Shown here piece by piece: positions 3,001-6,000 of a stretch of DNA of 7,800 bases. The DNA lies in IMG/VR virus record IMGVR_UViG_2529293076_000033, positions 1-7,800 of that record; one strand, given 5' to 3'. This DNA comes from a virus. Taxonomy: Duplodnaviria; Heunggongvirae; Uroviricota; Caudoviricetes. A program made the position numbers. The first letter of the stretch is position 1; every line of letters begins with the position of its first letter.

Positions 3001-6000
3001 CATCAACGAAGAAGAAGACAAGAACGGCACAATTGATATCCCGAATGAACACGGAACAACAAATCGCGCCGTAGTATATAACGGGAAGCATGGGTTTATG
3101 ACGATATATCCCAGTCCCATTCGTTTTGCCTTACAACAGTATATTGAATGGAATTTAATTCAAAAATACGGCGAGGCAGAAGGAATGGGTAGAGCGCTGT
3201 TTCTTTATCAGAAAATGCTCATTACATGCCCAGATAAAGGTTTCATTGTTTCAGACATGGGGCGAGAAGGGCTTGAACTCCTTCTGGATGAAATTATTAA
3301 CGAAATGAATACTCATAGCATGCAATCAGAAACCTCTATTAACTAAAAGGGACTACATGACCGTTATCGAATATATCCAGGAAAATCCAGATTGCAGTAG
3401 AGAAGATATATCCCTCGCACTTGGAAGAAGCGGAGTTTCTATCAGTAATGAATTATCACGGTTACTGTGGAATGGGTTAATTGTACGAACTGGTGAAAAA
3501 AACAAAATGATTCTGTATCGCGTAAACAATCTGCCGTTTGGATACAACAATCCCCTGAGCGTTATGTTCAACCAGTTACTTAAACAGGTAAGAAAGTCTG
3601 ATGGCGACTGACTCACAACTAACCATAGATACGGCTCTTAATGTCGGTCTGGCGCTCCTTGGTTATTTCTACATCATGTTCTGCAGCGGACGATGGCTGT
3701 CACTGTTGTTCATGAAAAAATGGAATAAACGCCGTAAGCAGGATCAACGCCAGAAGGCAATGGATGCATTTTTCGAAGCCTTCGGGATTGACGGCATGGA
3801 ACCAGGGGATCCAGCTCGCGCAATTAGCAGAGGGGGCGTAGTAATCCTTGTATATCGGAGTGAAGAGAAAAATGAGCGAGATCAACTATCAGGCACTGCG
3901 TGAGGCGGCAGTAGCAATTGAAACAGTAGCAACGCCTCAAAAATTGCTGGCATTTCGTATGAAAGTCACACCGTCGGTGGTACTGGCGCTGCTGGATGAA
4001 CGAGATGCATTAAACGAACGCATAGCCGAACTGGAGGCTAATTTAGCGGAGCTGGCCGAAGACCAACAGAAAGCGATTGAGTCAATTAAGCAGGCTGATG
4101 CGGCTGTTAAGTTGGCACACGAGAAGTTTTCGGTGCTGGCGGCAGAGAATGCGGAGCTTAAACAGTCGGAGAAGGAATTTAATAACTTCTGTCGTCAGGA
4201 GTACTACGGTTGGGAGGACAACTTCACGGAAACCCCAGCCACCGACGCTTTCCTGGCTGAAATTCGTGCGGCGGCTCGCAACGAGGGTATTAACTATACC
4301 GCAAGCCGTCTTGCTGCTGCTTTCAATCACGGATTTATCAATAAGTCTTTGCGTGAAGTTTTCGACGTTACACGCATGATTTTATCAGCGAAAGAAGAGT
4401 TGGCTAATGAAGCGCATCCGATTGATGGCCTGTCTGGTGAATATGCGGAGAAATCCCTTGAAGAATGGGCGGAACAGATTCGCAAAGGAGGAAACCAGTG
4501 AGCAAGATTGACTATCAAGAACTTCGTGAAGCAGCAGTAGCAATTGAAACAGTAGCAACGCCTCAAAAATTGCTGGCATTTCGTATGAAAGTCACACCTC
4601 AGGTTGTGCTGGCTCTACTGGATGAACGGGAAAGAAACCAGCAATACATCAAACGCCGCGACCAGGAGAACGAGGATATTGCGCTTACGGTAGGGAAGCT
4701 GCGCGTTGAGCTTGAAGCAGAAAAACAGCGGGCAAAAGTTCTATTTATGGAAAATGCTCGGCTTAAGTCAGGCATAGCCGGTCTGATACACCTCGGTCAA
4801 TATGCAGATATTGAGGTCATGAGAATTGCTGGAGATGCCCAGCTTTCTACCCCATGCACTGACAGCATCATAAAAAGCATTGCAACAGGCATTCGCATCA
4901 AAGGAGAGTGAGATGAACGGACAAATCTCAATTGTTCTACCGGGAGCATGTGACGATCGCGAGATACGAATGATTATTCGTCTGGCGATGGGGAAAACAA
5001 TAACTGCTCTCATTACTCCAGAAAATCTCGCATTAGCATTAACCGGAAAGTCAGACCTGCCAGTAGAGCTAAAGCTGCGAAATGTTGAGATTAAGGTGAA
5101 ATAGCTATGACCACTATTACCGACAAAGAGCTAATTAGAGAAATTAAAGAACATATCAGCAGTCTGGGGGGGGGCGGACAATATTGAGCGCCGTGCTTAT
5201 GAAATTGCGTTGACTGCATTGACCGCTGAACCATTCGCCACTATCGACACCGCGGGAATTGAGCTCGTTAAATATGGTTGTAACACGTTTATTTGTCCCG
5301 ACAATTCGATGGATCCGGGAAATGTACCGCTATATATCGGCCTGCCACGAATTGAGCCAGCAAGCCAGACTGCCAAGCTGTCATTCCAGGAATGGTTGTC
5401 AGAACAAAAAGAAAAAATAGACGTTGATTGCGGATGTGTAAGCATCGAAACGCTTACGCACTGGATGAAATCAGCTTATGAGGCTGGCAACTCTCCGGTA
5501 ACTCCGGATGGTTGGATAAGCTGTAGTGAGCGAATGCCAGAAATGGGAGAGCGACAATGCTATGTGTTAGCAGCTGACTTTAAAAACAACTACCCACCAA
5601 ACATCCCCAACACTCAGGTCGGCGTATATGGCGACTGGTTTAATGATGGCAATCCCACTTGGGATGACGGTGATGGCGAAGACCTGTATCTCAAAGAGGT
5701 AACCCACTGGATGCCTCTACCAGAACCGCCGCAGGAGGTGAAATGATGAATTGGCCTGAAGCATTCACCGCAGTTGGAGTTGCAATAGCGGTGGCATTTA
5801 TTCTGTATTCGCTTTTCCGCTGGGGATAAAGGAATGTTCGCGCTGATTCAACGTGGTCAGATATACAGAGCCGGATACCCTGTGGTGATTATTCGCAGTA
5901 CTCAGCACTCAGTGTTCTTTCGACGCATGGACGGGTGCTCCGGACGGGTACGCATTGGTGAGTTCAACAACCTGTTCGAACATATTGACCAACAGGAGTA

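What the first reader, a model, noticed from the sequence alone, without database searches (positions are those of the whole stretch)
5107..5746. G9 homopolymer splits a DUF551-type gene: possible slipped-strand switch, real pseudogene or sequencing artefact
An ORF with a good RBS starts at 5107 and terminates 11 nt after a run of nine G (5166-5174). The +1 frame is open from 5135 and encodes the rest of a DUF551-like protein ending THWMPLPEPP. Deleting one G (G8) gives one continuous ~212-aa ORF. Long G tracts are rare in enterobacterial coding sequence and are classic slipped-strand mispairing sites, so expression could be stochastic. It is equally a classic homopolymer sequencing-error position.
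Basis: seen in the sequence. Interest (0 to 1): 0.5.

Follow-up and report, generated by a model that had tools for sequence, protein, structure and literature searches.

The report
Unstable poly-G run breaks prophage gene
A run of nine G's that arose recently by a single point mutation has frameshifted an accessory gene of unknown function in a Shiga-toxin-type prophage. The run varies from 6 to 10 G's among near-identical prophages, so it is a genuine mutational hotspot, but nothing shows that it is an evolved on/off switch.

Summary
An ATG at 5107 follows a good ribosome-binding site. G9 lies at 5166-5174, the stop is at 5185-5187, and the +1 frame carries the rest of a DUF551 protein (Pfam E 9e-22).

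The window is the early-left arm of an Stx-converting lambdoid prophage of STEC (the yecE type) and is 99.96% identical to several complete genomes.

The wider gene family has GGG GTG CGG (G-V-R) at this site, with no tract. One T>G change made G7-CGGG, which is in frame and gives an intact 212-aa protein. On prophage backbones that are otherwise identical over 4.5-8.7 kb, the run is G7, G8, G9 or G10. G10 is in frame again and gives 213 aa. G6 is seen once. The run is therefore far more mutable than its flanks.

Most sequenced copies are out of frame. The window allele (G9-CGG) is unique. It has the common G9 plus a 1-nt deletion in the next GGG. The same window also has a 1-nt deletion that frameshifts the integrase, and an IS1203 end.

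Best reading: a slippage-prone, recently born homopolymer has produced a frameshift pseudogene in a dispensable gene. An adaptive switch, programmed recoding, or a pure sequencing artefact are each unlikely. The two private 1-nt deletions could still be assembly errors.

The parts
5093..5098 (+). Shine-Dalgarno-like AAGGTG, 8 nt upstream of the ATG.
   Evidence: Read directly from the sequence.
5107..5187 (+). N-terminal fragment ORF of the EaA/YfdT-like DUF551 gene: 26 codons plus TGA.
   Evidence: RefSeq annotates the equivalent in relatives as a 'frameshifted' DUF551 pseudogene.
5138..5138 (+). Window-private substitution A>G (AAA>AGA, K11R).
   Evidence: One of only three differences from L015, L016 and L017 over 7,505 nt. 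It was not found in any collection.
5166..5174 (+). G9 homopolymer, the frameshifting tract. Relatives carry GGGGGTG (ancestral), G6, G7, G8, G9 or G10.
5175..5177 (+). CGG. Every relative has CGGG here, so this is a window-private 1-nt G deletion that moves the allele from the +2 to the +1 frame offset.
5135..5746 (+). Open +1 frame that encodes the rest of the protein. Possible weak restarts are ATT 5183 (187 aa, overlapping the frame-0 stop as ATTGA) and TTG 5210 (178 aa, equal to RefSeq WP_000126164.1).
   Evidence: Restart use is an inference, not shown.
5510..5734 (+). DUF551 (PF04448) domain, residues 135-209 of the repaired protein.
   Evidence: E 9e-22, 78.2 bits. PHROG phrog_60, function unknown.
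5743..5829 (+). Small hydrophobic ORF (MMNWPEAFTAVGVAIAVAFILYSLFRWG) that overlaps the DUF551 stop as ATGATGA.
   Evidence: It is not annotated in relatives and was not investigated further.
6515..7800 (+). Tyrosine integrase gene, split by a window-private 1-nt G deletion at 6689 (GGGGAGTTT>GGGGATTT). It reads as ORFs 6515-6730 and 6667-7800+.
   Evidence: Relatives have an intact 428-aa integrase.
1..316 (+). 3' end of an IS1203/IS629 (IS3 family) copy that replaces the Rha-family gene region of the prophage. Homology to related prophages starts at 296.
   Evidence: No complete E. coli genome has this junction.

Best explanation
The region is an accessory early-left ('exo-xis'/ea region) gene of an Stx-converting lambdoid prophage. 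It encodes an EaA/YfdT-like N-terminal module fused to a C-terminal DUF551 domain, and its function is unknown.

In one lineage a single T>G substitution turned GGG GTG CGG (G-V-R) into GGG GGG CGG (G-G-R), which created a G7 run. Runs of that length undergo replication slippage (slipped-strand mispairing), and the run has since drifted between 6 and 10 G. G7 and G10 are in frame and give 212-aa and 213-aa proteins. G8 and G9 are not in frame.

The window carries the common G9 state plus a private 1-nt deletion in the adjacent GGG. Translation from ATG 5107 therefore stops after 26 codons, and the DUF551 part could be made only by inefficient re-initiation at ATT 5183 or TTG 5210.

The allele is best read as a frameshift pseudogene at an unselected mutational hotspot in a dispensable gene. 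The same prophage copy shows other decay: a frameshifted integrase and an IS1203 insertion.

Shown: the anatomy, the origin of the run, its length polymorphism on identical backbones, and the predominance of broken copies.

Inferred: replication slippage as the mechanism, dispensability of the gene, and any residual expression.
For: 1. Anatomy and domain.
2. Context: the window from 296 to 7800 is 99.96% identical to yecE-type prophages of STEC. Matches include complete genomes of O145:H28, O111:NM and other strains and Stx1a/Stx2a-converting phage genomes.
3. Origin of the run. Closely related genes with the same N-terminus have GGGGGTGCGGG and intact 203-205-aa ORFs. More distant homologues read SLGVRD, SLEVRD or SLDVRD. 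G7-CGGG gives an intact 212-aa protein with exactly the window's C-terminus (L005, L030-L036).
4. Length series. G8 is in L002, L013 and L025. G9 is in L001, L011, L012, L014-L017, L023 and L027. G10 is in L018-L022 and gives a 213-aa protein reading GGGRD. G6 is inferred from one 34-aa N-terminal fragment.
5. The run evolves faster than its flanks. L020 (G10) and L015 (G9) differ over about 8.7 kb of prophage only by one G. L013 (G8) against L031 (G7) and against L018 (G10) differ over 4.5 kb only in the run. One flank haplotype carries G7, G8 and G10, and the other carries G9 and G10.
6. Most copies are broken.
   - Among 5,426 complete genomes there are five G9, three G8 and one IS-disrupted copy, and none is intact.
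   - In the protein collection the truncated downstream ORFs occur on 98 (178 aa), 960 (145 aa), 25 and 6 contigs. The intact G7 protein occurs on 32 contigs and the intact G10 protein on 8.
7. G9 is not a platform artefact. Seven phage genomes finished from MiSeq amplicons with Sanger gap closure have G9-CGGG.
8. Other decay in the window: the integrase frameshift and the IS1203 end.
9. The gene is also knocked out by ISEc20 in other strains.
Against: - No reads are available, so the window's own run length and its two private 1-nt deletions cannot be verified.
- Two of the three private differences lie within 40 nt of the run. At least 24 Illumina contigs start exactly at GGACAATATT, just after it. 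The site is therefore hard to sequence, and some of the apparent length variation could be noise.
- In-frame G10 alleles sit on the same haplotypes as out-of-frame ones. This fits reversible switching as well as neutral drift.
- Contig counts are dominated by clonal STEC lineages, and different annotations of the same assemblies may be counted more than once. The low share of intact copies therefore says little about selection.
- The gene's function and dispensability were not tested.
Confidence: 0.75

Rival explanations
1. Evolved contingency locus. On this view the poly-G run is kept because stochastic ON/OFF switching of this early-region gene benefits the prophage or the lysogen, for example through heterogeneity in lysogeny or induction.
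For: - The length polymorphism spans both in-frame (G7, G10) and out-of-frame (G8, G9) states on identical backbones.
- G10 occurs on at least three different immunity backbones.
- Genes of the neighbouring exo-xis region, such as ea22, influence the lysis-lysogeny decision, and a DUF551 domain occurs in one Ea22 variant (PMC10834534).
Against: - The run is absent from the wider family and traces to a single recent T>G change.
- Only a few percent of sequenced copies are in frame, and no intact copy occurs in complete genomes.
- The gene is also inactivated irreversibly by ISEc20, and in the window by an extra deletion. That pattern suggests relaxed rather than balancing selection.
- No phenotype is known for the gene.
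Confidence: 0.1
2. Sequencing or assembly artefact. On this view the real gene in the source strain is intact, and the split comes from a homopolymer miscall.
For: - Homopolymers are classic error sites.
- The window differs from its nearest relatives by two 1-nt deletions and only one substitution, a ratio typical of indel-prone assemblies.
- Two of the three differences cluster around the run.
- Illumina assemblies often break exactly here.
- The window's variant is found nowhere else.
Against: - G9 is the state in five complete genomes, in seven independently finished phage genomes (MiSeq plus Sanger), and in the N-terminal fragment recorded on 70 contigs.
- Correcting the private CGG to CGGG gives G9-CGGG, which is still out of frame.
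- An intact gene would require two independent errors within 12 nt.
Confidence: 0.07
3. Programmed or fortuitous recoding. On this view RNA-polymerase slippage or ribosomal frameshifting on the G run produces useful amounts of full-length protein from the out-of-frame allele.
For: - G GGG GGG is formally a slippery heptamer, and long homopolymers can cause polymerase stuttering.
- In both out-of-frame states a stop overlaps a possible start (ATTGA in the window, TTGA in G9-CGGG relatives). Some downstream translation is therefore conceivable.
Against: - Relatives would need different shifts: +1 for G8-CGGG and for the window, -1 for G9-CGGG. Intact alleles also exist, so no conserved frame relationship is present.
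- No downstream stimulatory structure was found. The 5150-5270 RNA folds worse than its shuffles, with z = +1.95.
- In E. coli, transcription insertions within homopolymeric runs occurred only in A or T runs, and G/C runs were reported as not prone to slippage (PMC5574713).
Confidence: 0.05

Closest known systems
Homopolymeric-tract (poly-G/C) phase-variable and 'microevolving' genes, for example in Bordetella pertussis (PMC1891110), Neisseria meningitidis (PMC5084427) and Campylobacter
   Same: - An intragenic poly-G run whose length changes by slipped-strand mispairing and toggles the reading frame.
- Length polymorphism among near-identical strains, with both ON and OFF lengths present.
   Different: - The host here is E. 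coli, where I know of few natural SSM switches.
- The run is a very recent single-lineage accident and is not conserved in orthologues.
- Most copies are OFF, no phenotype is known, and within-culture switching has not been measured.
P22 EaA / lambda-Stx Ea22-V2 / CPS-53 YfdS and YfdT (DUF551-containing accessory early proteins of lambdoid phages)
   Same: - The C-terminal domain hits PF04448 well above threshold.
- The N-terminal 89 nt match K-12 yfdT at 84% identity.
- Homologues in 933W, Sakai and Min27 are annotated as EaA-like.
- The position is the same, between the ea22-like genes and xis/int.
   Different: - In K-12 the N-terminal module (yfdT) and the DUF551 domain (yfdS) are separate genes (PMC4776307), whereas here they are fused.
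- The C-terminal variant is specific to a subset of STEC prophages.
- The copy in the window is frameshifted.
Frameshift pseudogenes at homopolymers with proposed transcriptional rescue (Buchnera poly-A tracts)
   Same: A homopolymer-associated frameshift in a gene that is otherwise intact.
   Different: Those cases involve A/T runs. G runs were not slippage-prone for E. coli RNA polymerase (PMC5574713), and no rescue is indicated here.

Membership tests
DUF551 (PF04448) protein family | The sequence matches the Pfam HMM above the gathering threshold. | tested here: met
   The repaired ORF scores 78.2 bits against a cut-off of 22, E 9e-22, over residues 135-209 and the full 68-position profile.
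Slipped-strand (SSR) phase-variable contingency locus | A simple-sequence repeat inside the ORF or promoter whose unit changes switch the reading frame or expression. | tested here: met
   G7 and G10 give intact 212-aa and 213-aa ORFs. G8 and G9 truncate after 26-35 codons.
Slipped-strand (SSR) phase-variable contingency locus | Repeat-length polymorphism among closely related strains. | tested here: met
   G7, G8, G9 and G10 occur on backbones identical over 4.5-8.7 kb.
Slipped-strand (SSR) phase-variable contingency locus | The repeat is conserved across orthologues or lineages, as evidence that mutability is maintained. | tested here: not met
   The wider family has GGG GTG CGG, GAT GTG or GAG GTG with no run. 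The run derives from one T>G change.
Slipped-strand (SSR) phase-variable contingency locus | High-frequency reversible ON/OFF switching within a clonal population, with a phenotype. | not testable with these tools
   This needs reads, amplicon sequencing, reporter fusions and a known phenotype.
Programmed frameshift / transcriptional-slippage recoding site | A conserved slippery motif with a fixed relation between the two frames across homologues. | tested here: not met
   The out-of-frame alleles need different shifts, and in-frame alleles exist.
Programmed frameshift / transcriptional-slippage recoding site | A downstream stimulatory RNA structure or another stimulator. | tested here: not met
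   The 5150-5270 RNA fold has z = +1.95 relative to shuffles.
Frameshift pseudogene in a decaying prophage | The ORF is disrupted relative to intact orthologues, with other inactivating lesions in the same element. | tested here: met
   Intact G7 and G10 orthologues exist. The window also has an integrase frameshift at 6689 and an IS1203 end. Whether the lesions are real or assembly errors cannot be tested here.

The most novel reading that the evidence does not exclude
This would be a contingency locus caught at birth in E. coli. A single point mutation created a poly-G run in an exo-xis-region gene of Stx-converting phages. The run would now switch the gene ON (G7, G10) and OFF (G8, G9) at appreciable frequency within STEC populations, generating cell-to-cell heterogeneity in a factor that modulates lysogeny, induction or host physiology, and hence possibly Stx production.
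Probability: 0.08. Interest if true: 0.7.

Novelty: new member of a known kind. Interest (0 to 1): 0.3.

Why it matters
**Main value: annotation and method.**
- The split 'DUF551' calls in many STEC genomes (a 35-aa fragment plus a 178-aa or 145-aa ORF) are a single gene broken at a hypermutable poly-G run.
- Run length at this site should not be used uncritically as a SNP or indel marker, because it changes faster than anything else in the prophage and assemblies often break there.

**Biological value.**
- It is a clean natural example of how one substitution (GGGGGTG>GGGGGGG) creates a mutational hotspot that then inactivates, and occasionally restores, a gene.
- If the gene turns out to affect Stx-phage lysogeny or induction, the locus would be a rare natural slipped-strand switch in E. 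coli. Nothing here shows that.

Tried and rejected
- **Scans for the flanks with a variable gap.** The metagenome contigs and genome-contig scans gave no match. Only viral contigs gave loci.
- **Search for the window's private variant** (AGA at codon 11, CGG after the run, and the frameshifted integrase fragment). It is in no collection, so the source strain and its sequencing platform could not be identified.
- **Search for the IS-prophage junction** in complete E. coli genomes. It was not found.
- **PDB sequence search.** No hit.
- **AlphaFold2 with a 41-sequence alignment.** Mean pLDDT was 44.7 and pTM 0.26, too poor for a fold search, so none was run. The only usable hint, at low confidence, is that the run lies between two predicted N-terminal helices. 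That would fit tolerance of an extra Gly in the G10 allele.
- **PHROGs.** Only families of unknown function.
- **Promoter and terminator scan of 4400-6300.** Nothing found, so the gene sits inside a longer transcription unit.
- **RNA fold downstream of the run.** No structure, so programmed frameshifting was rejected.
- **Literature search** for natural slipped-strand switches in E. coli prophages. Nothing specific to this gene.
- **Minus-strand ORF 5091-5234** (47 aa, with its poly-C read as PPPP). It has no support and was dismissed.
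Full report
**1. Observation**

- AAGGTG at 5093-5098 sits 8 nt upstream of ATG 5107. That ATG is 2 nt after the stop of the preceding ORF (4880-5104).
- Frame 0 reads MTTITDKELIREIKEHISSLGGGGQY and stops at TGA 5185-5187.
- The run of nine G occupies 5166-5174.
- The +1 frame is open from 5135 to TGA 5744-5746.
- Removing one G joins the two frames into a 212-aa ORF. This ORF hits Pfam DUF551 at residues 135-209 (78.2 bits, cut-off 22, E 9e-22).

The run is unusual for this DNA.
- It is the only G/C run of 7 or more in the window.
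- A G9 was reached in 4 of 200 dinucleotide-preserving shuffles.
- No other G/C run of 7 or more occurs in 287 kb of related loci.

**2. Context**

Window positions 296-7800 are 99.96% identical to prophages of Shiga-toxin-producing E. coli. Most of these sit next to yecE, yecN and cmoA. The matches include complete genomes of O145:H28, O111:NM and other strains.

In the phage collection the same segment is the early-left arm of Stx1a- and Stx2a-converting phages and of 'PPyecE' (LC5678xx). These were described by Nakamura et al. 2021 (PMC8112680).

The gene order in the window is:
- LexA-like repressor (768-1424) and an HTH protein;
- several small ORFs, DUF4752, and two ea22-like genes;
- a 63-aa ORF, then the DUF551 gene;
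- DUF4222, an excisionase and the integrase.

No promoter-like or terminator-like site lies between 4400 and 6300, so the gene sits inside a longer operon.

Homologues in 933W, Sakai and Min27 are annotated as EaA-like. The N-terminal module matches K-12 yfdT. The DUF551 domain is the one found in YfdS and in one Ea22 variant (PMC4776307 and PMC10834534). Function is unknown: PHROGs gives phrog_60, there is no PDB relative, and the AlphaFold model was too poor to use (pLDDT 44.7).

**3. Where the run came from**

I scanned public contigs and fetched annotated genomes for the flanks CAGTCT...ACAATATT. The states found between the flanks are listed below.

| Sequence between the flanks | Length (nt) | Frame | Protein | Where seen |
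|---|---|---|---|---|
| GGGGGTGCGGG | 11 | in frame | reads G-V-R-D, intact 203-205 aa | L004, L006-L009 (L010 cut by its contig end) |
| G7-CGGG | 11 | in frame | G-G-R-D, intact 212 aa with the window's C-terminus | L005, L030-L036 |
| G8-CGGG | 12 | out | truncated | L002, L013, L025 |
| G9-CGGG | 13 | out | truncated | L001, L011, L012, L014-L017, L023, L027 |
| G10-CGGG | 14 | in frame | G-G-G-R-D, 213 aa | P0002; L018-L022 |
| G6-CGGG | 10 | out | inferred from a 34-aa N-terminal fragment | one Logan contig |

More distant homologues read SLGVRD, SLEVRD or SLDVRD. R23 to E32 are nearly invariant, so the site lies in a conserved N-terminal module.

The run was therefore born from a single T>G (Val>Gly) change and has since changed length. 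The window's state, G9-CGG (12 nt), appears nowhere else.

**4. The run changes faster than anything around it**

- L020 (G10) and L015 (G9) are identical over about 8.7 kb of prophage except for one G in the run.
- L013 (G8) differs from L031 (G7) over 4.5 kb only by one G, and from L018 (G10) only by two G.
- L018 (G10) and L031 (G7) differ within the prophage by one SNP, one T indel and three G.
- One 2.5-kb flank haplotype carries G7, G8 and G10. The other, two SNPs away, carries G9, G10 and the window allele.

Several independent length changes have thus occurred in the time that produced zero to two substitutions in kilobases of flank. This is what replication slippage at a G7-G10 run predicts from established knowledge of homopolymer indel rates.

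**5. Are the lengths real?**

Evidence that G9 is real:
- Five complete genomes have G9-CGGG and three have G8-CGGG.
- Seven phage genomes finished from long-PCR MiSeq data with Sanger gap closure all have G9-CGGG.
- The 35-aa N-terminal fragment specific to G9-CGGG is recorded on 70 contigs.

G7 and G10 occur in many independent assemblies, mostly NCBI draft genomes.

The site is nevertheless troublesome. At least 24 contigs begin exactly at GGACAATATT, just after the run. Some of the length calls may therefore be noise.

**6. State of the gene in the population**

- No complete RefSeq genome has an intact copy.
- Truncated downstream ORF calls occur on 98 (178 aa), 960 (145 aa), 25 and 6 contigs. 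The intact G7 protein occurs on 32 contigs and the intact G10 protein on 8.
- These counts are inflated by clonal sampling and possibly by duplicate annotations, so they say nothing about selection. They do show that Stx phages commonly carry the broken allele.
- In other strains an IS110-family element (ISEc20) sits inside the run, with 6 G to its left and 4 G to its right. That is an irreversible knockout.

**7. What is special about the window**

Against L015, L016 and L017, the 7,505 shared bases differ at only three places:
- A>G at 5138 (K11R);
- loss of one G from the GGG after the run (5175-5177);
- loss of one G at 6689, which frameshifts the otherwise intact 428-aa integrase.

In addition, an IS1203/IS629 end replaces the Rha-gene side of the prophage, and this junction is unique.

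Two 1-nt deletions against one substitution, with two of the three changes within 40 nt of the run, is what an indel-prone assembly would produce. It is equally what a decaying prophage would show. Without reads I cannot tell which.

Either way the DUF551 gene is out of frame. Restoring CGGG gives the common G9-CGGG allele, which is also broken.

**8. Mechanism and rivals**

*Best explanation (confidence about 0.75).* A recently created homopolymer undergoes replication slippage, and this copy is a frameshift pseudogene of a dispensable accessory gene.

*An evolved phase-variation switch (about 0.1).* ON and OFF lengths on one haplotype fit this reading. Against it:
- orthologues lack the run;
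- few copies are in frame;
- irreversible knockouts occur;
- no phenotype is known.

*A pure sequencing artefact (about 0.07).* This would need two errors within 12 nt, and it contradicts the well-supported G9 in relatives.

*Recoding (about 0.05).* This is unsupported for three reasons.
- Different alleles need opposite shifts.
- The downstream RNA is less structured than its shuffles, z = +1.95.
- In E. coli, transcription insertions within homopolymeric runs occurred only in A or T runs, not G/C runs (PMC5574713).

*Possible leaky expression.* In both out-of-frame states the premature stop overlaps a potential weak start. In the window this is ATT 5183-5185 with TGA 5185-5187. In G9-CGGG relatives it is TTGA, at the start of the 178-aa ORF. 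Some N-terminally truncated protein could be made by re-initiation. This is inference only.

**9. Comparison with known systems, and novelty**

The locus behaves like the homopolymeric tracts that drive phase variation and micro-evolution in Bordetella, Neisseria and Campylobacter (PMC1891110, PMC5084427). It fails the test of repeat conservation, and its switching behaviour is untested. I therefore do not file it as a contingency locus.

It is a member of the DUF551/EaA-like accessory genes of lambdoid phages, and it is one more example of a homopolymer frameshift pseudogene.

Novelty: a new member of a known kind. Interest is modest at 0.3. The point most worth keeping is the clean reconstruction of how one substitution created a mutational hotspot that now varies from G6 to G10 among Stx phages.

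Noticed in passing
window 6689 (integrase gene 6515-7800): A window-private 1-nt G deletion (GGGGAGTTT>GGGGATTT) frameshifts the tyrosine integrase, which is an intact 428-aa protein in all relatives examined. It is either real prophage decay or an assembly indel error.
   Followed up: partly
window 1-316: The 3' end of an IS1203/IS629 (IS3 family) copy abuts the prophage at about 296 and replaces the Rha-family regulator region found in relatives. No complete E. coli genome in the collection has this junction.
   Followed up: partly
L026 1123-2586 (NZ_AP024921.1, O145:H28 12E115); also LC567831 and LC567833: An IS110-family element (ISEc20) is inserted exactly inside the poly-G run, with 6 G to its left and 4 G to its right. 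This creates a 200-aa fusion ORF (P0011, 13 contigs). I did not examine whether the G run matches the element's preferred target.
   Followed up: no
L028 and L029, position 1 (and about 22 similar contigs): Many Illumina draft contigs begin at exactly GGACAATATT, immediately after the run. Assemblers therefore frequently break at this site, a sign of poor read support or of length heterogeneity.
   Followed up: partly
window 5183-5187; L014 2001-2004: In both out-of-frame allele types the premature stop overlaps a potential start in the DUF551 frame. In the window it is ATTGA. In G9-CGGG relatives it is TTGA, at the start of the RefSeq-annotated 178-aa ORF. Re-initiation is possible but untested.
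   Followed up: no
window 5743-5829: An unannotated 28-codon hydrophobic ORF (MMNWPEAFTAVGVAIAVAFILYSLFRWG) overlaps the DUF551 stop codon as ATGATGA. It is a candidate small membrane peptide.
   Followed up: no
window 3862-4005 and 4488-4631: A 144-nt direct repeat (85% identity) marks the shared N-terminal segments of two adjacent, overlapping ea22-like genes (3848-4501 and 4465-4911). Gene callers give the second gene 137, 138 or 148 aa in relatives.
   Followed up: no
L020 and L034, downstream of the integrase: The same prophage arm is followed by NleG and IpaB_EvcA effector genes instead of yecE, yecN and cmoA. This copy is therefore integrated at a second site, consistent with the 'prophage within prophage' (PPompW) integration described in PMC8112680.
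   Followed up: no
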